A DNA stretch of 64,000 nt from Acidobacteriota bacterium (lineage in GTDB: Bacteria; Acidobacteriota; UBA6911), in the NCBI GenBank assembly GCA_963664705.1, contig OY761556.1:704001-768000 (forward strand), written 5' to 3'. A program made the position numbers and the translations under genes. This document shows, piece after piece, positions 9,013 through 26,544 of the stretch. The notes below the pieces were generated by a model. The model was not told the DNA's origin. It worked only from the letters and a program-made list of their open reading frames with translations, and searched no databases. The stretch's first letter is position 1, and each line of letters starts with the position of its first letter.

Positions 9013-9044
9013 TCTCTGGCATTTCCGTTATTGGCGGGGAGATT

Positions 9045-9821: not shown

Positions 9822-9872
9822 GCGGGCCTCCATCTGCTCACAACATTGCCGACGTCCGCCATTTGCCATGGA

Positions 9873-10367
9873 TTACTGCAGCGCGATTAGTTCAACGTCA
9901 AATATCAGGGTGGCGTTTCGTGGTATAAGCGGCGGCACTTCGGTCGATCCGTAGGCAAGGTCGGGAGGGATTTTGATCTGTCGCCTTCCTCCTACCTTCA
10001 TTCCTTCGACTCCTTCTTCCCAGCCCGGGATAACTTGACTGGCTCCCAGTGTGAAAACGGGGAGCCGGCCATCGGAATACGAACTGGCAAATTCCCTCCC
10101 GTTTTCTACCCAGGCCTTATACTGGACCATAACCGTATGCCCCCTTCCTGCTGGCATTCCTTCACCTGTCAGGATGTCCCAATAGATTAAACCGGACGCG
10201 GTTTTTACCCCTTCGCCCGTCACTTTGGTCGGTCTTTCAATGTTGATAACGGACTGTTCCTGCGGGTTCAGCTTTCTTCGGAAATATCTCGATGCAGAAT
10301 GCTGCGATTGTGCCGGCAGGTCGGGGGCTGCCAATATCGCCAATACCAGGATCAAAATGCCGCGCAT
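9873..10367 (-). CDS. FKBP-type peptidyl-prolyl cis-trans isomerase, exported
   Basis: TASGLIY, QVIPGWEEG, IPPDLAYG, LIFDVEL motifs; signal peptide. Confidence 0.93.
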   Translation of the reverse strand: MRGILILVLAILAAPDLPAQSQHSASRYFRRKLNPQEQSVINIERPTKVTGEGVKTASGLIYWDILTGEGMPAGRGHTVMVQYKAWVENGREFASSYSDGRLPVFTLGASQVIPGWEEGVEGMKVGGRRQIKIPPDLAYGSTEVPPLIPRNATLIFDVELIALQ

Positions 10368-10388
10368 CCATCCTCCTTCTGGCAGGCG

Positions 10389-12002
10389 CTATGGGACGAT
10401 CCAATCTCCCTCCGGGATCAGGGTCCTTTCATCGGCGCCGCCGAATCTCACGATATATCCGCCCTTGGATGCAAAACGCTGCCCTGGGCCTAAGCTCAAT
10501 CGTGTGTAGTACCCATCAATCACTCTTGTGCTCAGCATGCCCTCTACATTTTCCACCAGATAATCGCGCAGGAAGTTGTCCAATACCTCATTCAGGCTCT
10601 CGGAGATTATGTTGCAGGCAATATAAGTGTCGACTTGTGTTTCTTCTGCAACGACCGGGATTTGCTGAATCCGAAACCATCCCAATGGATAATCGAGAAG
10701 GGCACCCCGGCGGGATGGTATTTCAAAAGGATAGGCCATATGAGCCACGCTTCGCCAGGAACCGGGAAGCGGAACATCGTCCAGCCCTCCCATTATTGCG
10801 GATAGAAATATGTGTGTTGCTTTCGGCGGTTCAGCCGGAAGCATTTTTAAGTCATCTGGCCGCAGCCACAAAATCAACACATCCCGAGGACGTGCTTTCC
10901 GGAGCGAATGCCTTATGAGCATTTGGCCCGGGGATGAGGGAAGAGGCTGGTCGATTACAGTAATGCCGTGAGCTGCACTCTCGGCATGAAAAGCCTTTGC
11001 GGCAGCGTCGCCCACATCATCTTTTCGGAAGACTTGCACAATGCGACGAGCGTTTTGTGGCGATGGCCCTCGGCTCAACTGCTGTGCAATCAACTGGGCC
11101 TCAAGCAGTACCCCCTTGGAGAAATAGAGATTGTAGAAGTCCTCCTCTGCCACAACCGGCAACTCCACATTGGGGAAGAAGCAGGGGATGGACTCCTGTT
11201 GGCAAAACTGATGAATGGGCTGCCAGTTTGCGCCTCCCATTCCGGAAAGAACCGCAAAAACAGGTTCGGCCTTGAGCTTCGCCCGCAATTGTTCCATCCA
11301 TCCTGTTGCGTCTCCGGACAGCTCCCAGATGTGCAGTTGCCATTTGCGGGGCACACGGTACATCATTTTGGTATATCGCGCTGGGGCTGGTATCGGGCGA
11401 TAGAAGACATTTTTTGCCGCAAAAAAATGCTGCAATACATCCAGCATGCCCTTTCGCTTTACCGGATCCGAATCAGGAGTGATGATGGTTGCGAAGTGCA
11501 GGGTATCCCCGGTAACACCTGGAACACTCCCGCTGGACAGGCTTGCGAGATAGGAAATCAGCGCGCTCATCGTGTCATTGTCAAGCGGATATCTTGGCAT
11601 GACATAGTTGAGCGGACGCCCGTCAGGAGTGATACCTTCACGAATCGCTTTTGCAAGAGTCTCGCCCGTGTAGGGTGGCCTATTAGGCGTTGTCCGCTCG
11701 GTGTGGTCCGTTGCTTCTCGCGCAAAAAGTCCTCCCGAACTGAAGAGATACTTCGCGGTAACAGGAGGGATCAGGGTTCCGCCTTCTACGCTGCCCATTC
11801 CGCTTGGCCGATGGCAGTTAACGCAGGCGGCTGTGGATCCGGAGATCGATCCGCCGCCCGGCCGTTGTGCGGTTACCTCTGCTCCCGAGGCAAGGATTCC
11901 TTTCCGGTACAGCACTTCGCCTTCGGTCAGTGCATTGGTAGCTGCCCATATCCACGCGACAAAGAGCACGATGCACGACACGAATATCAACGGAATGCGC
12001 AT
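10389..12002 (-). CDS. Monoheme c-type cytochrome fused to a periplasmic binding protein-like domain
   Basis: Signal peptide; CVNCH heme motif and MPRY distal-ligand motif; C-terminal PBP-like region ending RLSLGPGQRFASKG. Confidence 0.8.
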   Translation of the reverse strand: MRIPLIFVSCIVLFVAWIWAATNALTEGEVLYRKGILASGAEVTAQRPGGGSISGSTAACVNCHRPSGMGSVEGGTLIPPVTAKYLFSSGGLFAREATDHTERTTPNRPPYTGETLAKAIREGITPDGRPLNYVMPRYPLDNDTMSALISYLASLSSGSVPGVTGDTLHFATIITPDSDPVKRKGMLDVLQHFFAAKNVFYRPIPAPARYTKMMYRVPRKWQLHIWELSGDATGWMEQLRAKLKAEPVFAVLSGMGGANWQPIHQFCQQESIPCFFPNVELPVVAEEDFYNLYFSKGVLLEAQLIAQQLSRGPSPQNARRIVQVFRKDDVGDAAAKAFHAESAAHGITVIDQPLPSSPGQMLIRHSLRKARPRDVLILWLRPDDLKMLPAEPPKATHIFLSAIMGGLDDVPLPGSWRSVAHMAYPFEIPSRRGALLDYPLGWFRIQQIPVVAEETQVDTYIACNIISESLNEVLDNFLRDYLVENVEGMLSTRVIDGYYTRLSLGPGQRFASKGGYIVRFGGADERTLIPEGDWIVP

Positions 12003-12016
12003 GGAGGAAATCCTCG

Positions 12017-12601
12017 TTATCTGGCGGCCGCAACCTCACGGCGGACTTCGCTGAACAGCTGATCGGTGGTGGCAAATCCATCAAAACGAACCCAAGGCTT
12101 GTCTGCCGCAGGGCGCACTAGAATCACCGGCGCATGATTCATTTTGTCGCCGCGATAAACACCGAAAGCACGTGCCGCGGCAATAACCGCCTGTGTGGTC
12201 CCTGTATAGTGATGCCATTCGGATCCTGCATGCAATCTTTTTGCATAGGCTGCCAGGCGTGCAGGCGTGTCCTGTTCCGGGTCGATTGAAATAGAGAGCA
12301 TATGCACGTGATCCCGGTCCTTTCCCAGTCGGTCCTGGAACTTGGCGAGCGTCTGACTGATTATTGGACAGATCGAAGTGCAGGAAGTAAAGATGAAGGT
12401 CATCAAGGTTGGCCGGTCATCCCTGAGTTCATTTTGCAGCGTCACCTTTTCGCCATCATCTCTTACCAGTTCCACCTGGGGAACGACGTATTCCGCCGTT
12501 GAACGTTTTGCCCCCGTTTCATTTCCGCGCGCCATCGGTCCACTAAGGGCTGTGAATACAATAATCATAAGTAATGCTGTGCCGCTGGGACATCGGTTCA
12601 T
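12017..12601 (-). CDS. SCO1/SenC family copper chaperone
   Basis: FTSCTSICP (CxxxC), SISIDPEQDTP and downstream His (MNH). Confidence 0.92.
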   Translation of the reverse strand: MNRCPSGTALLMIIVFTALSGPMARGNETGAKRSTAEYVVPQVELVRDDGEKVTLQNELRDDRPTLMTFIFTSCTSICPIISQTLAKFQDRLGKDRDHVHMLSISIDPEQDTPARLAAYAKRLHAGSEWHHYTGTTQAVIAAARAFGVYRGDKMNHAPVILVRPAADKPWVRFDGFATTDQLFSEVRREVAAAR

Positions 12602-12614
12602 TCAAGGCCTCCCT

Positions 12615-13385
12615 CTAGTTTGCAGCACGGATGCCGGAATAATCCGGCTTCGCAAAAATGCTGTTTTCCAGATTCGGATTCAGATTAACTGTTTCGATCC
12701 TTATGTTGCGTGCAGGAACTACATTCTCAACCACCGTTTCCAAAACAAAAGGCATCATTAATCCGCCAACGGATCGATAGTCGCGATAGTTGATATAGAC
12801 CCTGTGTGGTTTTCCGTCGAGCATGCGCGGAAAACCCTCTACTCTGACTTCGAGAAATGTTTGGGCATCAATCCAGATATTTCGCACCTGATTATCCCTG
12901 GTTGTAAGCCTCAGCTTGTAGGCCGCGCGTTCTTCTATCGGCTCTACTCCTGCCAGTTCTATTTTGATGCCTTTAGTTTCATGGTCGATCAGGAGGCCAT
13001 CCAGTGCTTCTTGTTCCGTGGCACTTTGCATTTCGGCCTGGGTGAATGGTTCTACCTGCAGCCGATTCAGGAATGGACGTACCTTCCAGCCGTTACTGCC
13101 ATCATAGACCTGTAATGCGGTTTTTCCGGCAAACTCCAGTTCAAGCCTCGACATTCGAGGCCGTTTGAGTTTTAGCGTAAATGGCAGTTGAGCATTTTGT
13201 TTACCTCCGGCGTCCATTTTACCGGTCATGGTCATTGACTTAATTCCGCGCCAAGCTTGCAATCCACCTCGGGCAGCGATGTTCTTTTCCACCACCTGCT
13301 CTGCCGTCATGGTCTCTGCGAGAGCTGCATGGGCCGGTATTTCTATTGCTAAAGAAAGGCAAACCACAAGAAGCAGTTTGTGCAT
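12615..13385 (-). CDS. LolA-like outer-membrane lipoprotein-sorting family protein
   Basis: Signal peptide; AARGG..AW, YDGSNGW, WIDAQTFL, DYRSVGGLMMP motifs. Confidence 0.8.
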   Translation of the reverse strand: MHKLLLVVCLSLAIEIPAHAALAETMTAEQVVEKNIAARGGLQAWRGIKSMTMTGKMDAGGKQNAQLPFTLKLKRPRMSRLELEFAGKTALQVYDGSNGWKVRPFLNRLQVEPFTQAEMQSATEQEALDGLLIDHETKGIKIELAGVEPIEERAAYKLRLTTRDNQVRNIWIDAQTFLEVRVEGFPRMLDGKPHRVYINYRDYRSVGGLMMPFVLETVVENVVPARNIRIETVNLNPNLENSIFAKPDYSGIRAAN

Positions 13386-13483
13386 CTTGAATCACCTCCA
13401 AATGATCCTAAGCATTCACGATGTAAACAATCGATCACGAAAGCATCATCGCTAACAGTCTAGCCGGCGACAATACGGGAGGA

Positions 13484-13499
13484 TGTTCACTATTGAACA
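13484..13499. promoter_or_regulatory. Palindromic operator TGTTCACTATTGAACA, upstream of the LolA-like/SCO/cytochrome c/FKBP unit
   Basis: Identical 16-mer at 26817; minus-strand -10 TAGACT (13462-13457) 21 nt downstream. Confidence 0.75.
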
Positions 13500-13522
13500 T
13501 AATTCAATAAGCATAGGCATTT

Positions 13523-14053
13523 CTATTGCACCTCCAAACCCTCTGCCCTAAATAGGCCAATAGCCAGGGCAACTCGATCTCCTCGTTTTACCAGCCTTCC
13601 CTTATTGGAGAAAGCCATCCAGTAGAATTTCCCGGCCTCCGGATGATTGGTCTGGCGCAACTGCCCGATTTTATCCATGGATGGAACCACCAGTTGGACT
13701 CCAGCCCGCGGATCGATCAAAATCGGCTGATTGGTTTTTTCATTAAGCGGGGCGGCCTTGTCCGCGTCCAGGATACGATAGCTGAATCGAATGAGTTCGC
13801 CGGCTTCAGCCGTCCTGATTTGAAGAGAATCAATGCCCCAGACTCTGCTGTAATAAAGCTCCGCCCGTTTGGGAAATTGGGCGGAGCGATAGTGGCGGGC
13901 GTTTTTTGACGCGGCCGGCTGCAGGGCTGAGACCACGGATTGAGCTTTACAGGGTGAAATGAGCAGACCGCTGATTACCATTCCGAGAATCATTATTTTT
14001 GTATCATGTGTGAAGCGACGCTGGAACATGACAGGGTCTTCTCCTTTAGCCAA
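13523..14053 (-). CDS. Exported hypothetical protein of the MCO cluster
   Basis: Hydrophobic N-terminus; lies directly after the 3045-aa gene on the same strand. Confidence 0.7.
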   Translation of the reverse strand: MAKGEDPVMFQRRFTHDTKIMILGMVISGLLISPCKAQSVVSALQPAASKNARHYRSAQFPKRAELYYSRVWGIDSLQIRTAEAGELIRFSYRILDADKAAPLNEKTNQPILIDPRAGVQLVVPSMDKIGQLRQTNHPEAGKFYWMAFSNKGRLVKRGDRVALAIGLFRAEGLEVQ

Positions 14054-14079
14054 AGTTGAGGGCAGGCTTCCTGGCTAAT

Positions 14080-14117
14080 GCATAGAAGGAGCATCCATCC
14101 GGATGCCCCTTCTATGC
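14080..14117. terminator. Stem-loop after the giant gene (terminator or mRNA-stabilising hairpin)
   Basis: gcatagaagg-a-gcatcc/atcc/ggatgc-c-ccttctatgc inverted repeat; no clear U-tract. Confidence 0.5.
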
Positions 14118-14125
14118 GACCTCAC

Positions 14126-17100
14126 CTAAGGTGTGATTGTGAAACTCACATTGCCGCCGGATCCGCCGGGCGTGGTAACGCTTACGTTCCGCGTTGCATT
14201 GGATCCATTGATGTTGGCATTGGTTGCAATGGTGAACGTTGTTGTGATCGTGGTGCCATTGGCTGAAACCGCTAATGCTCCAACCGTTACGCCACTGCCG
14301 GATACATTCACCGCAGTGGCTCCCGTCAGGTTGGTGCCAGTCAATGTAACGTTGAATGCTACACCATTCCTTGCATGTGTAGCCGGACTGATGGCGCTTA
14401 ACGCCGGCGCTGGAGGAGCCGTCACCGTGAAATTCAAAGTGTTGCTGGTTCCTCCGGGAGTGGTGATGCTGACGGTCCTTGTGCCCTGGCCTCCATTGTT
14501 TCCTATGGGAATCACAAAGGTGGCGGTGGCCGTTGTGGCGTTGACAACGACAAGGTTGGTGACAGTGATTGCATTTGGCCCGCTACCTGAAACAGTCACC
14601 GATGTTGCTCCCGTCAGGTTCGTTCCAGTCAGGGTTACCGGAACACTGCTGCCTCGAGTGCCTGACGCAGGACTGATGCTTGTCAGGGTTGGGGCGGTAT
14701 TGCCTCCGCCACCAGCAGCCGAGCCCTGGATTTCGATGGCTCCGGCATCGGTGGTGTGTGGGTTTGCGCCTGGATCCGGCCTTGGATTGCCAAAAAAGTC
14801 GGTCCTTGGGGCTGTGATGGTCGGGCCATTGCCATCGGGAATTACCTGGCAGCCAACAGCTGCCGCATTTGCATTGGAGCACTCCACGAAATCAATGGCC
14901 GATGAACCCGATTGCAGCGAGTAATTGCCCAGCACTGCGTTGGTCACGGGGTTTACAAGAGACAGGGGGCCCCAACTCATGTTGATCCAGTTGTTGCCCT
15001 CATCCACGGTTGCGGCAGGAGTCAGGCTGAAAATTGGATTGGGCACCGTTGCATCGGAAATGCCCGGCGGGACCTGATAGCCCAGGCCACCGTTTTCCGG
15101 GGGAACTCTTGCCCCATTGCAATATTGCCTGATCACCGACGGATTACTATTTGCGTTGTGGCCATTGTAGCCTGCGATGCTCGTCAGCAGTGACCACTGT
15201 GCGTTCAGAGTGAATCCTGAACTGTGATTGGCGGGTCCGGTGTCGCCACGCACGCCGATATCCCAATAGTTTGACCCATTCACGCATTGGCCGGTTGCCG
15301 TTTGGCTTGCCGGTGCCGTTCCGGTTAACCCGTTGAGCAACGCGACCACGTTCTGCTGGTTGAGTGCCCCCGTTCCCAAACCTCCCACGTGAATGTCAAA
15401 CGTCCGGTTCTGCCAGAAAATATTGTCGTACAGAAGCGGATAGGAGATTTTGGTGCAGGTCCCATTCGTGGCCGTTCCGGAGTAATGACCTGCCGGGCAT
15501 GTAATGGGGCCGATACCGGCGAAGGAGGATACCAGCTGGGGGCTGTTTTGCAGCGATACCAGCCCCGCAGGTTGAGGACAGGAACCTGTGCCGTTAGCCT
15601 GCCCGGGGCAGTTGGCCGGTGGTGACTGCGAGCTTGCGAGTGGAGCTCCCAGTGTGTTGAAGAGAACACCTGCGGATGCGGTGCTGTCATTGGACATGAT
15701 CGTATTGTTCACGATGTTTACTGCCAACGAGTCTTCGAGCGAAATACCGCCGCCATCCCAGCCGGCCACATTATTGGCCAGAATATTGTTGGTGACAGCG
15801 ACAGAGTACCAGCTGGCGGGAGCACCCGGGAACCGGGCAACCTCGGTGCCATTGACCGCCTGGAAACGCAGTCCACCGCCGCTGCCGCTCTCCGCGCCAT
15901 TTCCCATGATGAGGTTTGCATTGATTACCAGACCTGGGCCGGCGCCATCGCCCAATCCCGGTACGCAATCGACGTCGGTCACAGTGCCGCATTCTGTGGC
16001 GACTCCATTGACGATCTGCGTGCCGTCAGGTGGAGCACCCATGACGATAATACCGCCGCCATTGGTCGGTATCGTCGGGTTGATACTTTGATTGAACAGG
16101 AACGTGTTGTGTTCAATGTCTCCGTTGTAGATAAAGCCGAGGTGTCCTAAGCCTCCGCCATCGCCAGTGCTCAGGTTGCCGCATACCCAGTTGTTGTTGA
16201 ACCGGTAGTAATCGGCTCCCGTGGTGAAACTTGCGCCACCCGCTCCGGCCGGTGTGGCCGTAAACAATTCATCACCAGTGGAGGAATTGTTAAAGATGGA
16301 ATTGTTGTGCACATTCGTGTGCAGGAAGAAGCAATAGGGTAATTGAGTGTTTGTGACCGTGCTGTCCTGGCAGGAACCGGGAGCGATGACTCCGCTGTTG
16401 GGTGCCAGGTAGGCATCCGTAAATTCGCCCTGCCCGATGCTTATCCCGCCGGATAGAGTGCCGGCATTGTTGTTGACCTGGTTGTTGGCGATCTGGAGGT
16501 TGTGTGCCCAGCCGTGCACCAGGATGCCGCCTCCGCCCTGGGAGCTGTTTGTGATTCCCAGCCCATCAATACTCGATGGATTGCATTGGAAGTTGCTGGG
16601 ATATGGATTGGACCCTCCTGAACTGCTCTTACAAATGGGATTGGTGTCACCCGACAGGAATATTCCTGAAGCTGTTCCCTGTCCGGAAAGCAGCGTGCTG
16701 CCGGCGGGAAAGTCTGCTTCCGCGCCGCTGCCGAAAACATCTGCGGCACCCTGTGGAATATTCACTCCCTTGGACAGGACCGTGATGGCTGCTCCTTCGT
16801 AAGCTCCCATCAGCGAGGGCTCCTGCAGCATTTCGGCCAGGTTGCCATTGAGCGTTGTATCCCATCCGACAATACCCTCTCTTGGAAGACGGTCGACCGC
16901 CATGAACGGGAAGCTGGGGCCTCCGGAGAAATAGCTCCAGGTGTTACCGTTTGGCCCAGGCTGTGAGTTTCCTGTGCCGTCCGGGCATCCGAAAGCGCCT
17001 GTGGAGTCAAAGGGGTTGGCATTGGTGCGTGGTTGGCCATTGAGCGCCAGGCCAAACAAGCAATTCACGCTGCGCCGCCATGGATCCAGCTTAGTAATTC

Positions 17101-20100
17101 CAGCCGGGTGGGTGTTGGCATTAATGATGCTGGATGCAGCGCCAACTCCCTGCAGCCGGACCGGTTTCCACATAAGCAGCAGTTCATTGTAAGTGCCGGG
17201 CGGAACGACAATGAGGTCGCCGGGAGCGGCCGCATCGAGATACGGTTGAATTGTTGACCCTGGGGCCACGGCAGTGGGCGCCTTGCCGCCAATGGTGACT
17301 GTAACCGCATCGACAGACTGCTGTCCCTTTGGGAAAGCTGTGGAAGGAGCCGTTGTAATAACCAGTTCTCCGCACTGAGCTGAAGAGCCTCCGTACTGAG
17401 CCTGTTGTTGCACATCACATAACGGCACGTTACTGGGAACATTAAGCACAATGGTTGTGTCGTTCCAGGTTGTGATCTGGTTGGATGGTACGTTGACACC
17501 TCCGATGCTGACCGTTCCTTGCGTTGTCCCGAAGCCGTAGTGACGACTGACTGTTTTTTGATTGAAGGGAGTCGTGTGTGCGGCGGGACCGGAGTAGCCG
17601 TAGTTGTTGACTATCTGATCGCCCAGTGCCGTGATTGTAATGCTATGACCGGCGGCGCTTACCCAGGGTCCCGTCCGGGCAGGGAAGCTTCCCTCCGTCG
17701 ATGTGTTGACAACCGAACTGATCGCGGGAGTGGATGCAGGAAATGCACAATCGGGGTTGTTGTATCCGGCGCCGACAAAGCCCGAGGTTGGCACTACGGG
17801 CGTGTCCATATACTGCGTTTGTCCCGGCATGAATGGGATTTCATAACAGAACTGACTATATCCCGGATTAAACAACGGATCCGTTATGGTCTGTCCCGGA
17901 TGCGCCGGATCAGCAATGGGTCCGGCATCGTTCATGCACGTTACCATCATGGTTGGCGCATAACCAGTCGGGTTGGGTGGATTTACTTCCCAGGTCGAGT
18001 AGGTAATGCCGTCATAGGATCCCCACTGATCGGAGTAGGTGCGGGAAATTTCATTGTAGTTGAAATCTCTGATGGAAACGGGAAGGTTCGCCGGCGAGAA
18101 TTTTTCGCCGAACGACGGGGAGAAGGGATCAAATTCCGAAGTGAAATCATCCGTGATGATCCCGGTAAAATGTGCGGCGGCATGGGTCGAGGTGAAAATA
18201 TAGAATTTCGCCAATGCGGAAGCTTGATCTGTGAGCGTCACCTCTTTGCGATCGCACAGGTTTCGTGTCGCACCCGCGAATGGAGCAACTTCCCTGGATT
18301 GCGGGAAAAGGCTGATGTAATCCGGAACGACGCGAGGCTCGCCTACACATGGCCAGAAGCTCTCAACACTGCCTGTATCCCCCTCATGTCTGGGGAAAGC
18401 GCCCAAATCCGTTGTCGGGTTCTGGGCATTGCTGGCATTGTACGATGCCGCCACTGCCGCCTGATCGGGTAGGATAAAAATGTTGGCCAGCGGGCCAAAC
18501 TGTTGTGTGACTGGCGCGATGTAGTTGTCGCCGATGAGTATGTTTTTGTCTTCTTCTTTCACCAGTTCGTATCCCGGAGGTACTACAATTTCCACAACAT
18601 ATTTGCCTGCCGGCAGCATGGGAAGTCCATGCCGATATGGATCCGTTGTGTCCGGATCGGGTATGCATACGGTCGGGTCGCAGTTTGTTCCGGTGGGTCT
18701 TCCCGTGTTGGGATCGAGACCGGTTACACTGGGGAATTGATACATCCCATCGTAGGGCGCAGGTTGCACCTGGTTCCAGTTGTGCATGCCGTCATAGCAT
18801 TTGAACTGAGAGTTGTTGGGCATGGCGTGAGCCGGAATACCGCTGTTGCCATACATGTCGAGCCACATTGGCTGGTTGTACAGCGAGAAGAAGAAGAGAT
18901 CGCCCGCGGAACCTGATGTTGGTGCCGGTTGCTGTCCCGGGCAGTTCATATAGGGCTTATTGGTCCCCGGGTAAAATCCCTGGGCCCAATCATCCCAACT
19001 GCTGGTTTTTGTGGTGTCAATCAGCTTGAGGCTTTTGCTCCCATCCGGCGCAGTCCCTTCCTGATACAAATTGATGGTGACTCCCGGGACGAGCGGTTCC
19101 CAACTGGTCTGCAATAGCAATTGCGGATCGTCAAAGGGACGGGTAGAGGCATACACTACGTGGCCCCTGATGCCGCCATTTTCTCCTACGGCATAGGGCT
19201 TTTTGCCGAATTCGATGAAACTGTTCTGGCCGGAAAAGCCCTGCCACCCTTCGCTTGTAACCCAGGGAGGGTCAATTCTCCCGGTAGATAACGTGCGGGT
19301 ACAGGTCGTTACCCCGGTTGTGGCATTGGTGGTACAGGTGCTGGGAGCGTCGCTGGCATTGCTGCCGTTTACCCCGCTGATCGACTTGCCAATGCAATCC
19401 GCGCCTGCGCAATACACGGCACCGGGCACTCTCAGCGCTGTCGGCAGGGATACCTGCTCCACAGTGTTGGCCATTTTCTGGCCGATGGAGGAATTGCCGC
19501 AGGGTGCAGTGGGTGGGTTTGAGGCCGAACCGCATGGAGTCCCATCGGCCGGTCCGCCCGCATCGTAAACCACATGGGTTCCGGTGTTCTTATAGCGGGT
19601 TGCATCTGTTTCAATGACATACCAGCTGAATAGCGGGAACACTTCATTGAAGCCGGCATTCCCATCCAAATCCGTGTTGTTGAAGTTTGAAAAACTCCCA
19701 TCCCGGAACCGGATGTTGGTGGGAACCAAAGTAAGTCCGTTTTCGTTACTGTCGCGCAATCCATTGCCGTTGGAATCAATAAAGGTATTGGTGTAAATAT
19801 TCGCTTGCCACTGATTGGTGGCTATCTGTCCCAGGTTGCCGGAATTTGCGACGGTGTGATCAAGTTTGACTGGTGTCGACAGGCCGTCCACAAGCATGTC
19901 ATTCCATTGATCAAAAACTGTGACTCTCCAATTGCCATCCGGAAGACCCGGAATGTTGAAGGATCCGTCTCCTGCGCATTTGGCAAACGCAAAGTCTTCG
20001 CCATCCGGATCTCCGATGCTCACATAACATTGTGTGAAGGCAAAACTGCTGTTGTCTCCGCTGCTGTAAAGCCGCTCATCGGGTGTTCGGCTCATGCGTT

Positions 20101-23100
20101 CGGTGGTGATACTGCCACTCAATGTGTTGGTGCAGCTTGTGCCGGTGATTGTCGGGTCAGTCCCCGCACACACCCCCTTCAATCGCCCATTGATGATGGT
20201 TGGATTGGCAAAGCCTATCGATACGTGGTATCCGGCCGGTCCGTATTCTTGAAAGTAGGCCGGCTCTCCGATGCGAAGGAAAGAATCGTGAGCCTTCTGT
20301 CCATCCAGCGTGTTGGTTTGCATCCATTCTTCACCGCGCGCGATCCTGTCCGCCCCTGGAGTGGCAACCACTCCATATCTTCCGGGCATAAGATTTGCAA
20401 TGACTGCTTGCCCGGCCAAAGGCGATAGCGTTGTCCCGTCAGATTCGTATCGCGGACATGTGACAATCATGCCCGTAATGCCTTTTTGACTTCCGTTGCC
20501 GCCGGTTGCGTTGGCGGTGACTTTGGTGGAAATGGGACAGGCATCTTTTCCGGTTGCCGGGTCGATTGTTCCAGCAAGACTGTTCGACAACGGCATATTG
20601 AACATGTCATAGGTCATTTGCCCCGTGGCATCACCGGTGCCTCCGGCATCGTCAAAGAGAACAATGTTGAATCCACCCAGCCCCGGTTCGTTACTGGCAA
20701 GAACATCAATGCCGCCTCCGGCATCCTGCTCGCCGTTGAGCGGGAAATCGTCTTCAAATACCTGGACCGACAACTTGGCGGGCTGAAAAGGAGTGGGATT
20801 TGTAAGCACCGTAACGCTCGTTTGCCCCGCAGCAATAGGAGCGCCGCCCATGGCATGCCCACTCTGGGCATTTCCGGTGTTAAATGGATTGGCGGCGTCT
20901 CCCGGCAATATTGAAATGTAGTAGCGCTTGGTTGGATCGAGATGAACTTGACTGGGGTTGACCGGGGACTGTTGCGCCGCACCGGTTCGACAACTTCCGT
21001 TGCCGACGTCGCACACTGCCGGTAACCCCTGAAGCGTCTGTCCCGATTCGCATGCTATGGTGCCAATGCATCCCTGTGCGACTACCGGCATGTAGCTCGT
21101 GTGAAAGTTGGTTCCAAGCGTAGGAACAATTCCGGTCACGCCCTGTCCCGGGATACTTGCAGTCGGGCAGCCGGCGGGCGGCGGATTTACCTGGCATTTG
21201 GGATCGACATAGAAGGTGCGATCCTCTTCAATGATCCAGCGATAATCCGTCACGGGAGTGCTTTTGTTGGCACCGTCCAAAACGGTCACATTGAGACCGC
21301 TTGCCGTCGGGAATATTAGTGTCACGGTTGCGGCCACAGAGCTCACGGTTCCCTGCGAGTTTTGTGCAAAGTAGGAGAACGTATAGCTTCCAGAAGCGCT
21401 GACGGCAGCGGTGAAGCCGCCGTTGGAATCCACTGTAATCGTTCCCGAACCAGGACCGGAAAGGGTTGTTACACCTGCAGAATTGTACACTTTGAGCGGA
21501 TATCCCGCGGCGTCTTTATCCGCCGACAGGATCCCCGGAGGATTGATGCGGATGCCGGAGGCCAGATTGGAGGTGTAGGTGGCGTTCTGCATCAGGATGC
21601 CCGCGGCACTTTCAATAGGCGCCGGGCCTAATGTAACCGTTGTGCAGAGACCGCCCGCCGTTGCCCCGTTTGCGCAATATCCAAAAGCATCCGATGTCGC
21701 GGTTCCGGAGGGTATGTAAGTAAATGTGCCATTCTTGTTGAGGGTTACAGTGCCGCTGGCTGCCGGAGTCGATATCTGAACTCCATAGACATTGATATCG
21801 TTGGCGATCACGCCTCTGGAAGGATCCGACACTGTGAAGGTTTGCCCCGCAATCAGGGAATTGTAGGTGTCTGGTGTGACCGTAGCGGCAAACGTGTTTG
21901 GCAGCGTTGAACCGGGGATTCCGGTTGTCGAGCCTCCTCCGGCATTGGTAGTGCCGGCCAGATTTCCATTGATGCTTATATAGGCCAGCATCCCGCCGTC
22001 GCGTGCGGTAGAGTTGCCGGATAGACTCAGTTGGCGATCAAACACCGGGAGTGCCCGCATGGTGCACGTTGTCCCCGGAGTCGCAGGAGTGCATGTGGCT
22101 GGGCCGTCTATCATCACATCAAATGTTTTGCCTGCAGCCATGAAAACATCGCTTTGCACTCGGCCTGATCCAGGCAGGGTATTGCCGTCTTCGGCCATCA
22201 GTGTGAAGCCCGGACTTGATCCGGTGGAAGCCCCTACGATGGAGGGAACATGCATGCGCAATCCCGCATTGACCATGCGCACCAGGACACTGCCTGCGGC
22301 GCCTGTAACAGGCAGACTGGCAAAATTGGAAATAGCGGGATTGTTCTTATCAAAGGCCACTCCGTTGATCAGGTAATACAAAGGAGTATAGTTCACGGCT
22401 GGCGGATAGCACTGGTGATAAGTCGAGGAACTGGGATTGCCGCATCCCCCCGGTTGACCTGACCAGACCATGGTTTCGCTGAAGTTGGCCGTGTTCACCG
22501 CGGCATTCACAGCTGCATTTTGTACAGGATCGATTTCACTAAAGAGCAGCGGTATTTCCTGGTTGTACACAACCGCCGGATTACTGCCGGAGGCAGGATA
22601 GGCTGTGCCGGGGTTTGATCCGGCCGGTGCCGAAGTGACCACAACCATTCCATATAATCCCATGGGTCCCTGAATGGATGGGTGGGTGCCGGACTCGAGA
22701 AGGTACGTGCCCGGCCGCAAACTGCTCCATGTCAATGCGGTTGTCTGACCTGTCGCCACTTCGGTTGAGAAAGATTGAATGCGAGGGCTTTGTGCTGGCG
22801 GTGATGCTGAGACACCGGTGTTTGCAATCGGCCATGTGGCATTTGCCTGAGCATTCGTATGGCTTGGGCTGGGCGTGTAGGTCGCAGCGCTTCCCAAGCC
22901 CGCTCCGATCTGCCCCACAATTACCAGCGAGGTCGGAATACCCGCCAGGGCTCCCGGTGGAACAGGCAGGCTATTTGTCAAATTAACGGTCAGGCCTTGT
23001 CCGGTTGGAACGGTAATAACAACGGGAGACCAGTTCGTAGTTCCCTGGTTCAGTTTTGCGCATGTTGCCGTTGATCCGGTTACGGCGGGTCCGCAGCTAT

Positions 23101-23263
23101 ATCCCCACATGGGTACGGCTGAACCATCGGGCAAGGTAATGCTCGTGGTTGTGGCCGTCATGTTCACCTGTTGTTGTGCTTCTGCCGCAAGTGTTCCAAT
23201 GAACAGGAAAACAGCAGCCAGTGTCGCAATGCTCCAGTTTGTCCTTAATGCTCTCGATCCCAT
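14126..23263 (-). CDS. Giant secreted protein (3045 aa): two degenerate cupredoxin/MCO-like domains, Ig/cadherin-like repeats, SdrD-B-like domains, right-handed beta-helix, IPT/TIG domains
   Basis: Signal peptide; PGTYLLESGTHPSIQGPMGLYG and YYLING cupredoxin-type segments without His/Cys ligands; GGG-rich beta-helix repeats; TDFFGNPRP...DAGAIE; C-terminal PTLTSISP/PALSAISP IPT repeats. Confidence 0.8.
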   Translation of the reverse strand: MGSRALRTNWSIATLAAVFLFIGTLAAEAQQQVNMTATTTSITLPDGSAVPMWGYSCGPAVTGSTATCAKLNQGTTNWSPVVITVPTGQGLTVNLTNSLPVPPGALAGIPTSLVIVGQIGAGLGSAATYTPSPSHTNAQANATWPIANTGVSASPPAQSPRIQSFSTEVATGQTTALTWSSLRPGTYLLESGTHPSIQGPMGLYGMVVVTSAPAGSNPGTAYPASGSNPAVVYNQEIPLLFSEIDPVQNAAVNAAVNTANFSETMVWSGQPGGCGNPSSSTYHQCYPPAVNYTPLYYLINGVAFDKNNPAISNFASLPVTGAAGSVLVRMVNAGLRMHVPSIVGASTGSSPGFTLMAEDGNTLPGSGRVQSDVFMAAGKTFDVMIDGPATCTPATPGTTCTMRALPVFDRQLSLSGNSTARDGGMLAYISINGNLAGTTNAGGGSTTGIPGSTLPNTFAATVTPDTYNSLIAGQTFTVSDPSRGVIANDINVYGVQISTPAASGTVTLNKNGTFTYIPSGTATSDAFGYCANGATAGGLCTTVTLGPAPIESAAGILMQNATYTSNLASGIRINPPGILSADKDAAGYPLKVYNSAGVTTLSGPGSGTITVDSNGGFTAAVSASGSYTFSYFAQNSQGTVSSVAATVTLIFPTASGLNVTVLDGANKSTPVTDYRWIIEEDRTFYVDPKCQVNPPPAGCPTASIPGQGVTGIVPTLGTNFHTSYMPVVAQGCIGTIACESGQTLQGLPAVCDVGNGSCRTGAAQQSPVNPSQVHLDPTKRYYISILPGDAANPFNTGNAQSGHAMGGAPIAAGQTSVTVLTNPTPFQPAKLSVQVFEDDFPLNGEQDAGGGIDVLASNEPGLGGFNIVLFDDAGGTGDATGQMTYDMFNMPLSNSLAGTIDPATGKDACPISTKVTANATGGNGSQKGITGMIVTCPRYESDGTTLSPLAGQAVIANLMPGRYGVVATPGADRIARGEEWMQTNTLDGQKAHDSFLRIGEPAYFQEYGPAGYHVSIGFANPTIINGRLKGVCAGTDPTITGTSCTNTLSGSITTERMSRTPDERLYSSGDNSSFAFTQCYVSIGDPDGEDFAFAKCAGDGSFNIPGLPDGNWRVTVFDQWNDMLVDGLSTPVKLDHTVANSGNLGQIATNQWQANIYTNTFIDSNGNGLRDSNENGLTLVPTNIRFRDGSFSNFNNTDLDGNAGFNEVFPLFSWYVIETDATRYKNTGTHVVYDAGGPADGTPCGSASNPPTAPCGNSSIGQKMANTVEQVSLPTALRVPGAVYCAGADCIGKSISGVNGSNASDAPSTCTTNATTGVTTCTRTLSTGRIDPPWVTSEGWQGFSGQNSFIEFGKKPYAVGENGGIRGHVVYASTRPFDDPQLLLQTSWEPLVPGVTINLYQEGTAPDGSKSLKLIDTTKTSSWDDWAQGFYPGTNKPYMNCPGQQPAPTSGSAGDLFFFSLYNQPMWLDMYGNSGIPAHAMPNNSQFKCYDGMHNWNQVQPAPYDGMYQFPSVTGLDPNTGRPTGTNCDPTVCIPDPDTTDPYRHGLPMLPAGKYVVEIVVPPGYELVKEEDKNILIGDNYIAPVTQQFGPLANIFILPDQAAVAASYNASNAQNPTTDLGAFPRHEGDTGSVESFWPCVGEPRVVPDYISLFPQSREVAPFAGATRNLCDRKEVTLTDQASALAKFYIFTSTHAAAHFTGIITDDFTSEFDPFSPSFGEKFSPANLPVSIRDFNYNEISRTYSDQWGSYDGITYSTWEVNPPNPTGYAPTMMVTCMNDAGPIADPAHPGQTITDPLFNPGYSQFCYEIPFMPGQTQYMDTPVVPTSGFVGAGYNNPDCAFPASTPAISSVVNTSTEGSFPARTGPWVSAAGHSITITALGDQIVNNYGYSGPAAHTTPFNQKTVSRHYGFGTTQGTVSIGGVNVPSNQITTWNDTTIVLNVPSNVPLCDVQQQAQYGGSSAQCGELVITTAPSTAFPKGQQSVDAVTVTIGGKAPTAVAPGSTIQPYLDAAAPGDLIVVPPGTYNELLLMWKPVRLQGVGAASSIINANTHPAGITKLDPWRRSVNCLFGLALNGQPRTNANPFDSTGAFGCPDGTGNSQPGPNGNTWSYFSGGPSFPFMAVDRLPREGIVGWDTTLNGNLAEMLQEPSLMGAYEGAAITVLSKGVNIPQGAADVFGSGAEADFPAGSTLLSGQGTASGIFLSGDTNPICKSSSGGSNPYPSNFQCNPSSIDGLGITNSSQGGGGILVHGWAHNLQIANNQVNNNAGTLSGGISIGQGEFTDAYLAPNSGVIAPGSCQDSTVTNTQLPYCFFLHTNVHNNSIFNNSSTGDELFTATPAGAGGASFTTGADYYRFNNNWVCGNLSTGDGGGLGHLGFIYNGDIEHNTFLFNQSINPTIPTNGGGIIVMGAPPDGTQIVNGVATECGTVTDVDCVPGLGDGAGPGLVINANLIMGNGAESGSGGGLRFQAVNGTEVARFPGAPASWYSVAVTNNILANNVAGWDGGGISLEDSLAVNIVNNTIMSNDSTASAGVLFNTLGAPLASSQSPPANCPGQANGTGSCPQPAGLVSLQNSPQLVSSFAGIGPITCPAGHYSGTATNGTCTKISYPLLYDNIFWQNRTFDIHVGGLGTGALNQQNVVALLNGLTGTAPASQTATGQCVNGSNYWDIGVRGDTGPANHSSGFTLNAQWSLLTSIAGYNGHNANSNPSVIRQYCNGARVPPENGGLGYQVPPGISDATVPNPIFSLTPAATVDEGNNWINMSWGPLSLVNPVTNAVLGNYSLQSGSSAIDFVECSNANAAAVGCQVIPDGNGPTITAPRTDFFGNPRPDPGANPHTTDAGAIEIQGSAAGGGGNTAPTLTSISPASGTRGSSVPVTLTGTNLTGATSVTVSGSGPNAITVTNLVVVNATTATATFVIPIGNNGGQGTRTVSITTPGGTSNTLNFTVTAPPAPALSAISPATHARNGVAFNVTLTGTNLTGATAVNVSGSGVTVGALAVSANGTTITTTFTIATNANINGSNATRNVSVTTPGGSGGNVSFTITP

Positions 23264-23276
23264 TCGCTCTTCTCCT

Positions 23277-24935
23277 TCAATTTGTCTCGTCTATGACAAA
23301 TTCCCGGGAGTCAACCAGCATCATCATCAACATGCCGCCAGGGAAAATGTTGTTGGTCGTGATTTCGCGTTCGTTATGTGAGTGCCACATAAATGCGAAT
23401 CCAGCTTCTGAGGAGGGATTGTTGGCAATGGTTCCGGATGGGGGCGTTGTTCCTGTTGTAGCGCAGTTGTTTCCGGCGCAGGTTCCGTAAGTCGCGCGGG
23501 TGGTTGCGTCCGGACCCAGATAGGGACTGCCGCCGAACCAGGGCCCATTGGTTAACAGATTCGGATCAGGCAGGGTCATAGGTCCGCCTGCGCCCACATC
23601 ACCGAAAGGAGCCTTCTCCATTGGCTTGTTGTGGTCCTGGCACCATTCGTAGTAATTGATCGCCGTCGGATTCCCGGTGTTATATCCATTTGCATCAGGC
23701 GTGCAGGGAAGCTTGGCATTAGGATCGCTGGAGCCCGGCGTATGGCCGTACATATCCCAGTTCAATCCCTTTCCCGTGTAGTAGAAGATTCCATCCATTG
23801 CCTGACCGGGAGTAGTCGTTGTGGTAAACAATAACGGCCCTGCGAGAGCTTGAGTCGCGGCGCTTGAGCCGGCATAAGTGATTGTGGAGCTACTGAGGAG
23901 TAGATTGCCATCGCGTGCAAGAATGCGCACATGGTTGCCATGTTCATGGAAGGGATGCTGCCATCGTCCCTGCCCTACAATCCGAAGCAGAACCAACTCT
24001 CCAGGGTGCATATGTGGATCCCCGTTGTAGGGCTGATGGGGATATTGGATCGCATAATTAGCATCCATGTCGTCGGGCATCGAACGTCCGTTGATCATGA
24101 AATATGCAGGGTGATATGGTTCTGTTGCGATGTTGAGGCTGCATCCCGTGGCACCGGCCACGCAAGCGCCCAGTGCTGTTACCTGTGCCAAGGCTTGACT
24201 GTGAATGTCAGGATCGATCTCCGAGAATTGGAATAGGTATTCCCTGTCATAGCAAGTGTCGGGATGGTTGTAGGCGGCCTTGGTCAATCGAAAATCCTTT
24301 TCCCCCCAAAACGCTTCTGCCTGGAGATTTTTGGCAGCCAGTGTTCCGGTTGCGGTGCAGTTTTGCGGAATGGAATTTGGGAGCACAATGATCGCGCCGT
24401 ACAGGCCCATCTCAATCTGAAGGTCGCCCTGGGTTCCGCTGTAATAGGAGCGAGTCCCCGGCGTGGTGGCAGTGAATGTATAGGTGACGGTTCCACCCGG
24501 CGCGGCCTCCTGCGTCAGAAGTCCGGCCACGCCGCCGCTGGTGGATACCGCAAAACCCGGGAACAGGATCGATGTGTTTCCGGCCGAACTCGGCAGATTG
24601 TTGTGCAAGGTAATCGATACTGACTGCCCTTGATTGACAATCAGAGTGGGGCCCGGGACTTGCATGGCGCCGCAAAACGGATTGTTGGCCAGGTTCGCGG
24701 GGAGATAACCGGACGGCGTACTGTTGCAGCCATAGCCCCATGAATAAACGGACTGACCATCCGGCTGGCTGATATAGGCGTCCTGGGCCGTCAAATCGAA
24801 AGTACCTGCCGCGCTGGTTCCGGTTATGCCGGGGACTGCCGAATACGCTGGTGGCGTGAGGAGCAGGGCGGCTGTCAGGATGGTCAAAGCCAGTATCCAG
24901 GGGTATTCTTTTTTTATTCGCATCACTTTCATCAC
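23277..24935 (-). CDS. Two-domain multicopper oxidase-like protein B (His ligands only in domain 2, no type-1 Cys)
   Basis: PGPTLIV; domain 1 NTSILFPG and SYYSGTQ lack ligands; domain 2 QHPFHEHG and WHSH. Confidence 0.85.
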   Translation of the reverse strand: MMKVMRIKKEYPWILALTILTAALLLTPPAYSAVPGITGTSAAGTFDLTAQDAYISQPDGQSVYSWGYGCNSTPSGYLPANLANNPFCGAMQVPGPTLIVNQGQSVSITLHNNLPSSAGNTSILFPGFAVSTSGGVAGLLTQEAAPGGTVTYTFTATTPGTRSYYSGTQGDLQIEMGLYGAIIVLPNSIPQNCTATGTLAAKNLQAEAFWGEKDFRLTKAAYNHPDTCYDREYLFQFSEIDPDIHSQALAQVTALGACVAGATGCSLNIATEPYHPAYFMINGRSMPDDMDANYAIQYPHQPYNGDPHMHPGELVLLRIVGQGRWQHPFHEHGNHVRILARDGNLLLSSSTITYAGSSAATQALAGPLLFTTTTTPGQAMDGIFYYTGKGLNWDMYGHTPGSSDPNAKLPCTPDANGYNTGNPTAINYYEWCQDHNKPMEKAPFGDVGAGGPMTLPDPNLLTNGPWFGGSPYLGPDATTRATYGTCAGNNCATTGTTPPSGTIANNPSSEAGFAFMWHSHNEREITTNNIFPGGMLMMMLVDSREFVIDETN

Positions 24936-24942
24936 CGCTCTC

Positions 24943-26544
24943 CTAATTGATGTGGATCTCGGTCATCAGACCGCCGAAATTCTCCGCGTCGTTAGACAGG
25001 TGATCGAGGTTTGGGGTGTAAAGAAAGAAAACGCTGCCCGGGGGATACATCGTTGTGTCGGTTGCATCCAGGATTGCGTCAAGGGACTCTCCGCCGCCAA
25101 GCGTGATGGAATTGGTTTTATAGGACATGTTGTTCCCAGCCTGATCCCTCAGCAGCTTGGCGTTGTATCCAATGACAGTCATTGGGATCCCCAGGGAAGC
25201 CAGCGTCTGATACTCGCTGACGTCGAGATCGGAGATCCGCAGCAGAGCCTTTTTTCCTGCAGGAATGTTGATAATGGATGGGAGTGGTTGTGAATAATGC
25301 ATCGCTCCATCCGAGGAAACGGTTGCCAACGGTCCAGCCGTTACCGTGTCAGGATAGCTCCGCCCGTTCAGAAGAAAGTATTTGTCCTTCATATCGGCGA
25401 ACCCTTCAGGGTTAAAGGTCATTCCAACGAAGTGAAAATTGGGATCAAATCCGTGGATCTGGATCGGGTATTCCACATCATAGTAGGTAGAACCATCGCC
25501 ATCGTTATAGGCGTATTTCCCTCCTCCGGTCGCGCTTGTCTGCGCCGCAGGCAATGGATTGCTGCACAGAATATCTTCTGTGGAATCGCATTTTGTGCGA
25601 TTGTCCAGTTGCTGTTGCTGCAGGCCGGCAAACAGAGTGGTGGTGCTTGGGACGCGATTCTGCCGTGGCCTTACGAAGAGCTGGCCGACCATGCCCATCT
25701 GCAGGTGCTCCGGGGGCGTGATGTGGCAGTGCCAGAAATAGGTGCCGGCATCCGGCGCCAGGTAGTAATACGTGAAGCTGGCACCGATATTGATTGCAAC
25801 GGAAGCATCGGGAACACCGTCGTAGAAGGCGGAGGCATTGGGATAGCCGTGAAAGTGGACTGTATGCTGCTCGAATAGATCGGGCCGCATGATCATCCCT
25901 ACATTAGTGAGAGTCAGAAAGAACTCGTCATCTTCATCGATTGCCATGAGTGGCGCCGGTATATTTCCGTTCATCACCCCCACATCCATAATCGGACGCG
26001 GATCCACATGCCCATTGATAGTAGGGTTGCCTGCAGTATCGATGTTTTCAGAGTAGGTATCCGGGGTTAAGCCGACCGCGCCATTGTAGGTAAATGCTCC
26101 CAGCGTGCCGGGTGAGGCTCCGCTTGAGGCTCCGTTTGTTGTGGCAGGGTCACCGGGTTGCAGCGATCCAGGCGATACCGTGTTGAACGTACTGGGAAAC
26201 TGGGTGCCAGGTAGTCCGTTGGCAATATCTGCAAGCCCTGACAAAGGTCCAAAAGAGAACATGTATGTCTGGGTGCCGTCTCCCATCGTGGCGTATCCGT
26301 CACCGCCGGAAATCTGCTGACACTTAATTGCGCCATTGATATTTGCGGGAGTTGATGGATATCCATTGGTACCGGCATAGGTCGGGCCGGTGTATGCCGG
26401 TTCCGCATTGTTTGCAGCTGCATTGGGATGGGTGATGGTGGTACTGGGGCATTGCACCCTAAATGACTGGGCACTCACTACCCCGGACAGAAGAAACAAC
26501 AAAGCCAGGGATAGACCAAGTCGATGCTGCCTATTCGGGATCAC
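24943..26544 (-). CDS. Two-domain multicopper oxidase-like protein A (type-1 site and His ligands only in domain 1)
   Basis: QHTVHFHG and YFWHCHITPPEHLQMGM in domain 1; domain 2 lacks HxH motifs. Confidence 0.88.
   Translation of the reverse strand: MIPNRQHRLGLSLALLFLLSGVVSAQSFRVQCPSTTITHPNAAANNAEPAYTGPTYAGTNGYPSTPANINGAIKCQQISGGDGYATMGDGTQTYMFSFGPLSGLADIANGLPGTQFPSTFNTVSPGSLQPGDPATTNGASSGASPGTLGAFTYNGAVGLTPDTYSENIDTAGNPTINGHVDPRPIMDVGVMNGNIPAPLMAIDEDDEFFLTLTNVGMIMRPDLFEQHTVHFHGYPNASAFYDGVPDASVAINIGASFTYYYLAPDAGTYFWHCHITPPEHLQMGMVGQLFVRPRQNRVPSTTTLFAGLQQQQLDNRTKCDSTEDILCSNPLPAAQTSATGGGKYAYNDGDGSTYYDVEYPIQIHGFDPNFHFVGMTFNPEGFADMKDKYFLLNGRSYPDTVTAGPLATVSSDGAMHYSQPLPSIINIPAGKKALLRISDLDVSEYQTLASLGIPMTVIGYNAKLLRDQAGNNMSYKTNSITLGGGESLDAILDATDTTMYPPGSVFFLYTPNLDHLSNDAENFGGLMTEIHIN

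What the first reader, a model, noticed from the sequence alone, without database searches (positions are those of the whole stretch)
14126..26544. Split multicopper oxidase: three co-transcribed 2-domain cupredoxin proteins with complementary copper ligands (candidate heterotrimer)
Seen: protein A (24943..26544) has HTVHFHG (25846-25866) and WHCH-x5-H-x2-MGM (~25690-25734) in domain 1 and no HxH motifs in domain 2. Protein B (23277..24935) has ligand-less equivalents in domain 1 (NTSILFPG, SYYSGTQGDLQIEMG) but HPFHEHG (~23935-23957) and WHSH (23376-23387) in domain 2. The N-terminus of the 3045-aa protein has two more cupredoxin-like domains with no ligand set (YLLESGTHPSIQGPMGLYG). The genes are separated by only 7 and 13 bp. 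Established: 2-domain MCOs and NirK are homotrimeric six-domain rings, and the T2/T3 site forms between domain 1 of one chain and domain 2 of the next. Inference: A domain 1 plus B domain 2 supply the 8 His of one trinuclear cluster plus one T1 site, and the giant protein closes the ring as a non-catalytic third subunit tethering the enzyme to a large extracellular scaffold. No single chain would be an active oxidase.
Basis: partly seen in the sequence, partly recalled or inferred. Interest (0 to 1): 0.92.

Follow-up and report, generated by a model that had tools for sequence, protein, structure and literature searches.

The report
Copper oxidase split over three subunits
Three neighbouring genes encode related copper-oxidase subunits, one carrying half of the copper-binding residues of the oxygen-reducing site, the second the other half and the third none, so they likely work only together as one mixed ring on a giant exported protein, possibly oxidising iron or manganese at the cell surface.

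Summary
A has the type-1 site plus four cluster histidines in domain 1; B has the other four in domain 2; the giant protein starts with a ligand-less paralogue. This split is identical in 114 of 114 complete three-module loci. A and B never occurred apart in 301 genomes searched with each (16 of 16 loci). The large scaffold is fused to the third module here, fused to A or free elsewhere, and B-third-module fusions exist, which points to one machine. The operon is in print as the uncharacterised Sideroxydans lithotrophicus ES-1 cluster Slit_1812-1818 (He 2017; Keffer 2025, induced late on magnetite). Neither paper notes the split, and I found no heterotrimeric two-domain oxidase from different genes in print. 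Best reading: an A-B-C ring with one four-copper unit, derived from a homotrimeric type-C enzyme. This scan has already reported the same system on other DNA at least ten times.

The parts
24943..26544 (-). Subunit A: two-domain cupredoxin with N-terminal hydrophobic signal-like segment; domain 1 has the T1 site (H227, C273, H280, M285) and four cluster His (H230, H232, H272, H274); domain 2 has no cluster ligands. Orthologue of ES-1 Slit_1818.
25846..25866 (-). A motif 1, H-x-x-H-x-H (T1 His plus two cluster His)
   Evidence: invariant in 70 of 70 mixed rows
25690..25734 (-). A motif 2, H-C-H-x5-H-x4-M
   Evidence: invariant in 70 of 70 and 120 of 120 long homologues
23277..24935 (-). Subunit B: two-domain cupredoxin; domain 1 ligand-less; domain 2 has four cluster His (H330, H332, H518, H520) and a remnant T1 site (H327, S519 for Cys, E524 for His, plus E522). 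Orthologue of Slit_1817.
23937..23957 (-). B motif 3, H-P-x-H-x-H
23364..23387 (-). B motif 4, H-S-H followed by x-E-x-E
   Evidence: the first Glu is absent in the B-C fusion lineage
14126..23263 (-). 3045-aa protein = ligand-less module + two Ig-like (Big_9) domains + conserved scaffold + TIG repeats. Orthologue of Slit_1816 (2873 aa).
21956..23176 (-). Module C0 (residues 30-436): two-domain cupredoxin paralogue without copper ligands; a stand-alone gene in many lineages
14714..21376 (-). Scaffold (residues ~630-2850): SdrD-B/CnaB/prealbumin-like and TIG beta-sandwiches followed by a right-handed beta-helix; free, fused to A, or fused to C0 depending on lineage
   Evidence: model of a homologue
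13523..14053 (-). Small conserved partner D (176 aa), predicted Ig-like beta-sandwich, no Pfam family, no conserved metal ligand. Orthologue of Slit_1815.
12615..13385 (-). LolA-like protein (weak Pfam match); corresponds to Slit_1814
12017..12601 (-). SCO1/SenC copper chaperone
10389..12002 (-). Monohaem cytochrome c (CxxCH) with a long C-terminal part; corresponds to Slit_1812, which He et al. call MofC-like
9873..10367 (-). FKBP-type prolyl isomerase (the class of MofB); beside the cluster in some loci only

Best explanation
A carries a type-1 copper site and four histidines, B the complementary four and the third module none, and the three likely assemble into one asymmetric six-domain ring with a single oxygen-reducing four-copper unit that probably oxidises a reduced metal at the cell surface. 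Shown: the ligand partition, its conservation, the fixed gene set and the fusions. Follows from known 2dMCO structure: the trinuclear cluster lies between domain 1 of one chain and domain 2 of the next, so only an A1/B2 contact can hold it, and electrons would pass from the T1 site through H272-C273-H274 to it. Inferred: C0 fills the third place (contacts B2/A1, A2/C1, C2/B1, the reverse of gene order); the ring docks on the scaffold; SCO loads copper; all chains are Sec-exported. Inferred and weakest: the substrate is Fe(II) or Mn(II) on or near mineral surfaces, possibly bound at the acidic remnant T1 site of B. Odds by step: A needs B ~0.92; C0 is in the ring ~0.75; metal substrate ~0.4.
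For: Partition A=1100, B=0011, C0=0000 in 114 of 114 loci with three full modules, out of 185 loci examined (kin, not independent). A then B in 80 of 80 close loci and 67 of 80 distant loci; A-B-C in 79 of 80 and 49 of 80; every miss lies within 303 bases of a contig or locus end. Strong A and strong B hits coincide at 16 of 16 loci in 14 of 301 genomes. Scaffold fused in front of A in 117 of 120 long homologues, free upstream of A or fused behind C0 in loci. Six B-C0 fusion proteins. A, B and C0 each form one side of a branch (SH-aLRT 100, 95, 99), B and C0 are sisters, and undivided type-C relatives exist, one beside a D homologue. Cluster between domain 1 and the neighbour's domain 2: PMC13151041, passages. 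Orthologues co-induced in ES-1 late on magnetite, log2 differences 7.7 (C), 5.5 (B), 3.5 (A). SCO, MofC-like and FKBP partners are the set found with OmpB/MofA metal-redox oxidases; SCO also lies in Pseudomonas mnxG operons.
Against: In ES-1 the A orthologue reaches the 29.5th abundance percentile against 74.8 (B) and 79.3 (C), which does not look like 1:1:1, although only 5-7 peptides were seen for A and B. No A-B or three-module fusion was found (0 of 120; 0 of 21; weak searches). The ES-1 induction is late, not early, on magnetite (early percentiles 0, 33, 21), so growth phase or starvation may explain it. Many hosts are not known iron oxidisers: Acidobacteriota, Paraburkholderia, Cupriavidus, Ralstonia. 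An undivided relative sits beside a TonB-dependent receptor and a CusBA-like pump, a copper-handling context. No activity has been measured for any member.
Confidence: 0.62

Rival explanations
1. A and B complement each other, but without C0 in the ring: an AB heterodimer or mixed A/B rings of other stoichiometry, with C0 acting as an assembly aid or an independent adaptor to the scaffold.
For: The ligand logic needs only A and B. Unequal ES-1 abundances. C0 is the most divergent module (mean column identity 26% against 35-36%).
Against: C0 follows B wherever the contig extends, is fused to B in six proteins and keeps both full domains. Degenerate-site residues such as the S-G-T motif are 90% or more conserved, as expected for a retained interface.
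Confidence: 0.2
2. Same ring, but the substrate is organic: phenolic or humic polymers, or cross-linking of a surface matrix during stationary phase, with the beta-helix and adhesin-like domains holding the polymer.
For: The scaffold has a beta-helix and fn3_3/SdrD-like domains. The cluster is common in soil Acidobacteriota and Burkholderiaceae. A type-B 2dMCO oxidises lignin fragments as well as Fe2+. ES-1 induction is late.
Against: ES-1 induces the cluster on magnetite but not in late Fe(II)-citrate culture. Accessory genes match metal-redox clusters. No catalytic fold was found in the modelled scaffold part.
Confidence: 0.25
3. Same ring, used for copper handling (Cu(I) oxidation for uptake or detoxification) or for scavenging O2 at the cell surface.
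For: The undivided relative in L093 lies with a TonB-dependent receptor and CusB/CusA-like genes. C. metallidurans CH34 carries the cluster. Named hosts include likely anaerobes such as Bathyarchaeia and Kiritimatiellae.
Against: No copper pump or regulator is part of the conserved split operon among the queries tested (one search used only the window's neighbours as queries). A 2,000-residue conserved scaffold is not needed for cuprous oxidation (inference).
Confidence: 0.15
4. A is a stand-alone homotrimeric nitrite reductase or blue-copper electron carrier, and B and C0 are degenerate paralogues with unrelated roles.
For: NirK proteins are among the sequence hits. A has a complete T1 site.
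Against: A has His at the position of the NirK catalytic Asp and Pro/Thr where the neighbour-chain His should be (alignment; NirK residue roles recalled). Scores are far below the NirK cut-off (34.7 against 296 bits). B's four His are invariant in 70 of 70, and A was never seen without B.
Confidence: 0.04

Closest known systems
Sideroxydans lithotrophicus ES-1 cluster Slit_1812-1818 (He et al. 2017, PMC5566968; Keffer et al. 2025, PMC12016527)
   Same: Same gene set and order. Table S3 peptides of Slit_1818, 1817, 1816, 1815, 1814 and 1812 match A, B, the giant protein, D, the LolA-like protein and the cytochrome by eye. Similar sizes (515, 520, 2873, 170, 280, 535 aa).
   Different: Nothing essential. 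The papers call them three tandem MCOs, or two proteins with 'canonical' MCO motifs; in the passages read they do not note that each is half a site or propose a heterotrimer. No function was shown. The window adds an FKBP gene.
Type-C two-domain multicopper oxidases (N. europaea blue copper oxidase 3G5W, metagenomic laccase 2ZWN, Nmar_1354 9CCK)
   Same: Best PDB hits for all three modules; T1 in domain 1; same motif positions.
   Different: Those are trimers of one gene product with three full sites. Here no chain has both His sets and the ring would hold one site. Nmar_1354 is an alpha-alpha-alpha' trimer of one gene product, one copy lacking its pendant domain (PMC11761707), not three paralogues.
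Six-domain multicopper oxidases (ceruloplasmin, MnxG)
   Same: An asymmetric six-domain ring with one trinuclear cluster that oxidises metals (architecture recalled; ferroxidase and Mn-oxidase roles).
   Different: Those are single chains. Here there are three genes, one T1 site, and a separate or fused scaffold. No six-domain MCO ranked among the best sequence hits.
OmpB (Geobacter) / MofA (Leptothrix) surface MCO clusters
   Same: Exported MCO with adhesin-like domains and MofC-like cytochrome, SCO and FKBP partners.
   Different: He et al. state that the three ES-1 MCOs are not homologous to these. OmpB/MofA are single-chain enzymes.

Membership tests
Type-C two-domain MCO | Two cupredoxin domains per chain | tested here: met
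   A, B and C0 align over both domains of 3G5W/2ZWN
Type-C two-domain MCO | T1 site in the N-terminal domain | tested here: met
   Met by A only (H227, C273, H280, M285); absent in B and C0
Type-C two-domain MCO | Each chain carries all eight cluster His (four per domain), so a homotrimer is active | tested here: not met
   A 1100, B 0011, C0 0000 in 114 of 114
Type-C two-domain MCO | Trimeric ring with the cluster between domain 1 and the neighbour's domain 2 | not testable with these tools
   Complex prediction unavailable; inferred from homology
Multicopper oxidases in general | Four-electron O2 reduction at T1+T2+T3 copper | not testable with these tools
   Needs enzymology; the ligand set is complete only for A plus B
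Copper nitrite reductase (NirK) | Catalytic Asp in the domain-1 motif and one T2 His from the neighbour's domain 2 (roles recalled) | tested here: not met
   His at the Asp position, Pro/Thr at the His position; 34.7 bits against cut-off 296
Six-domain MCO (ceruloplasmin, MnxG) | Six cupredoxin domains in one polypeptide | tested here: not met
   Three separate ORFs; no three-module fusion among 120 and 21 long homologues
Slit_1812-1818 cluster | Three tandem cupredoxin genes (the third very large), small hypotheticals, SCO and cytochrome | tested here: met
OmpB/MofA | Single-chain MCO with all four motifs plus fn3 | tested here: not met
   No chain of the operon has four motifs; the separate gene at 45616-49695 does

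The most novel reading that the evidence does not exclude
This is an obligate heterotrimeric multicopper oxidase built from three paralogous genes: an unfused counterpart of the step between homotrimeric two-domain and single-chain six-domain oxidases. It is mounted on a conserved 2,000-residue surface scaffold and acts as a widespread, so far unrecognised oxidase for mineral-bound Fe(II) or Mn(II) in soils and sediments, across several bacterial phyla and some archaea.
Probability: 0.3. Interest if true: 0.9.

Novelty: new variant of a known kind. Interest (0 to 1): 0.72.

Why it matters
It would add a quaternary design not found in my literature searches for multicopper oxidases: one catalytic unit shared among different gene products. 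It explains why single-gene expression or motif screens of these proteins would fail or mislead, since each is annotated as an MCO but is half an enzyme. It also makes an open question testable: the ES-1 cluster induced on magnetite has no assigned function, and the split predicts that A, B and C0 must be co-expressed.

Tried and rejected
Complex prediction for a compact homologous trio (L135; 999 residues, three 70-row alignments) was not available: the queue was full twice, so there is no verdict on binding. Three genome surveys meant for other phyla redrew the window's own phylum and add nothing independent; one did sample another phylum, with 2 of 400 non-centre genomes positive, both with the full set. 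No relative in viral contigs. No RNA holder listed; no reads were laid. Rfam found nothing in the operon or its leader. Promoter and terminator counts for 8500-14200 equal chance. Atlas searches for D and the scaffold gave only hypothetical clusters. D has no clear fold match (best Z 6.9). The scaffold model matched adhesin-type sandwiches, not an enzyme, but it was searched whole and covers only about 1,090 residues. The cytochrome had no PDB relative. No secretin gene lies near the operon; four lie elsewhere in the genome. Literature: searches (heterotrimeric + multicopper oxidase + two-domain: 0 papers) found no description of a split or multi-gene heterotrimeric 2dMCO; subscription papers are mostly not searched. 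Lawton 2009 and Novikova 2024 were not held. Rejected: frameshift artefact (same three ORFs in 80 of 80 loci); pseudogenes (invariant ligands); NirK; 'the scaffold is part of the third subunit' as a general rule.
Full report
1. Observation. The three minus-strand ORFs exist as described: A 24943-26544 (533 aa), B 23277-24935 (552 aa) and a 3045-aa protein at 14126-23263, with gaps of 7 and 13 bp. All three begin with a hydrophobic signal-like segment (read by eye; no signal-peptide predictor was run). A has the T1 ligands H227, C273, H280, M285 and the cluster His H230, H232, H272, H274 in domain 1; its domain 2 aligns to 3G5W without the His. B has no ligands in domain 1 and has H330, H332, H518, H520 in domain 2, with Ser for the T1 Cys. 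The first ~410 residues of the giant protein (module C0) are a complete two-domain paralogue with no ligand motif.

2. Conservation. All 80 have B next and 79 have C0 after it by HMM; the exception ends 274 bases after B. A metagenome scan with a 15-row alignment confirmed 567 of 600 and kept 80 more distant loci: 67 of 80 show B and 49 of 80 show all three, and each miss lies within 303 bases of the end of the DNA. Of 185 loci examined, 114 hold three full-length modules; the other 71 were dropped as truncated, frameshifted or lacking a full module. In those 114 the four-motif pattern is 1100 for A, 0011 for B and 0000 for C0 without exception. These rows are kin and partly redundant, so this is a count, not a statistic. 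To test for solitary genes I searched the same 301 genomes of the window's phylum with A and with a B profile: 19 and 18 genomes matched. The strong hits coincide at 16 loci in 14 genomes; the weak hits I opened are other MCOs, several of them with motifs in both domains. In a second phylum 2 of 400 sampled genomes matched, both with the whole set. Named hosts include Acidobacteriota, Gallionellaceae, Steroidobacteraceae, Planctomycetota, Verrucomicrobia, Methyloprofundus, a Bathyarchaeia archaeon, Paraburkholderia, Ralstonia and Cupriavidus metallidurans CH34.

3. One machine, wired in several ways. Residues ~630-2850 of the giant protein are a scaffold conserved at about 30% identity across lineages. 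In most distant loci it is a free gene upstream of A, and C0 is a stand-alone gene. In 117 of the 120 listed long homologues of A (167 found) it is fused in front of A, whose ligand pattern is unchanged in 120 of 120. In the window's lineage it is fused behind C0. Six proteins fuse B to C0 through a linker, probably one lineage; a seventh looks like a frameshift read-through. No A-B or three-module fusion turned up, though those searches are weak. A small gene D follows C0 or the giant gene (45 homologues); its model is a confident beta-sandwich without a clear match. A model of ~1,090 residues of a free scaffold (L135; pLDDT 84, pTM 0.81) is a compact set of SdrD-B/CnaB/prealbumin-like and TIG domains, and a beta-helix follows by Pfam. 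SCO, a monohaem cytochrome, a LolA-like protein and an FKBP complete the window's operon.

4. Origin. In a quick IQ-TREE tree of 74 modules (22 of the 114 loci, the window, five other MCOs; midpoint root, no bootstrap) A, B and C0 each form one side of a branch (SH-aLRT 100, 95, 99), and B and C0 group together (100). The window-type loci group with L199, which shares the C0-scaffold fusion, in all three subtrees. Undivided type-C relatives with both His sets exist (L092/L093, L220), and L093 lies next to a D homologue. Two duplications of such a gene followed by complementary ligand loss fit these data; the order of events was not tested with a rooted test.

5. Mechanism. In two-domain MCOs the cluster is bound by domain 1 of one chain and domain 2 of the next (PMC13151041, passages). 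A homotrimer of A or of B would therefore have four His per interface and no cluster; only A1 against B2 gives eight, with the T1 site wired in through H272-C273-H274. A three-membered ring then needs A2/C1 and C2/B1 contacts, all ligand-free, which matches what is conserved. B keeps a remnant T1 pocket (H327, S519, E522, E524; invariant in 70 of 70) that could bind a substrate metal; this is untested. Against a strict 1:1:1 ring, the ES-1 orthologue of A is far less abundant than those of B and C (29.5 against 74.8 and 79.3 percentile).

6. What is known. He et al. 2017 (PMC5566968, passages) noted three tandem MCO genes with a mofC-like gene and a copper chaperone in S. lithotrophicus ES-1, predicted them to be extracellular and gave no function. 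Keffer et al. 2025 (PMC12016527; passages, the proteome section part 1 of 2, supplement rows) found Slit_1812-1818 induced late on magnetite and described Slit_1817 and Slit_1818 as having canonical MCO motifs. Their peptide lists match the window's proteins by eye; Fig. S4 was seen as a legend only. I found Keffer et al. by my own search; He et al. was in the same listing, but I read it after earlier scan notes named it. Also seen as passages: PMC11761707, PMC13689576, PMC10707984, PMC13741234, PMC10732223 (nothing relevant) and bioRxiv 10.64898/2026.01.22.701106. That preprint's closed supplement lists MCOs of a related iron oxidiser and may bear on this cluster. Nine further searches found no account of the split (see Tried and rejected). 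The domain layouts of ceruloplasmin and MnxG and the NirK residue roles are recalled, not from calls.

7. Function. The best-supported guess is oxidation of reduced Fe or Mn at surfaces (~0.4): co-induction on magnetite, the OmpB/MofA-type accessory genes, adhesin-like domains and the analogy with six-domain metal oxidases. Against it, the induction is late and may reflect starvation, and many hosts are heterotrophs or likely anaerobes. Organic polymers (~0.25) and copper handling or O2 scavenging (~0.15) remain open.

8. Verdict. The feature is real and strongly conserved. The operon is published but uncharacterised; the split-site heterotrimer reading is not in the literature I could search, but this scan has reported it on other genomes at least ten times, which is not independent support. 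New variant of a known kind; interest 0.72.

Noticed in passing
window 45616-49695 (+): A second, single-chain MCO (1359 aa) with all four motifs and an fn3 domain, resembling the OmpB/MofA layout, followed by a CusB-like gene at 50501-51955. The genome has at least three more MCO-like genes elsewhere.
   Followed up: partly
L093 9182-18921 and L092: Undivided type-C two-domain MCO beside a protein with D-like domains, a TonB-dependent receptor and CusB/CusA-like genes; a good control enzyme for the split system.
   Followed up: partly
window A 367-371, B 241-245, C 245-249 (residue numbers approximate): All three modules share an invariant Asp followed four residues later by His (A 70 of 70, B 69 of 70) or His/Asn (C0 33 and 32 of 70) at the start of domain 2; it might line the ring's centre.
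   Followed up: partly
window 53544-53667 (+): FMN riboswitch upstream of the ribBA gene at 53806.
   Followed up: no
window 34415-45375: Sulfate uptake and assimilation cluster (ABC transporter, CysN/CysD/CysH-like, sirohaem synthesis, sulfite reductase).
   Followed up: no
window 58198-61125 (-): Aldehyde:ferredoxin oxidoreductase-like gene with a 4Fe-4S partner.
   Followed up: no
window 6532-9869 (-): A 274-aa protein without a family directly after the FKBP gene, and a 741-aa fn3-repeat protein; not part of the conserved set in most loci.
   Followed up: no
G304 (four loci), G035, G147, G302, L013/L023, L179: Several genomes carry two to four copies of the operon, sometimes in tandem, and L179 has two scaffold genes in a row.
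   Followed up: no
L081, L082, L084 (C0 C-termini): Stand-alone C0 genes end in varied tails (dockerin-like repeats by eye, Ig-like domains), suggesting that lineages anchor the complex in different ways.
   Followed up: no
L013, L022, L054, L065, L097: Operons broken into many overlapping frames, typical of indel errors in long-read assemblies; left out of the full-module counts.
   Followed up: no
L060, L062, L070: Record titles name other phyla, but the genome search placed these genomes in the window's phylum, so titles overstate the taxonomic spread.
   Followed up: partly
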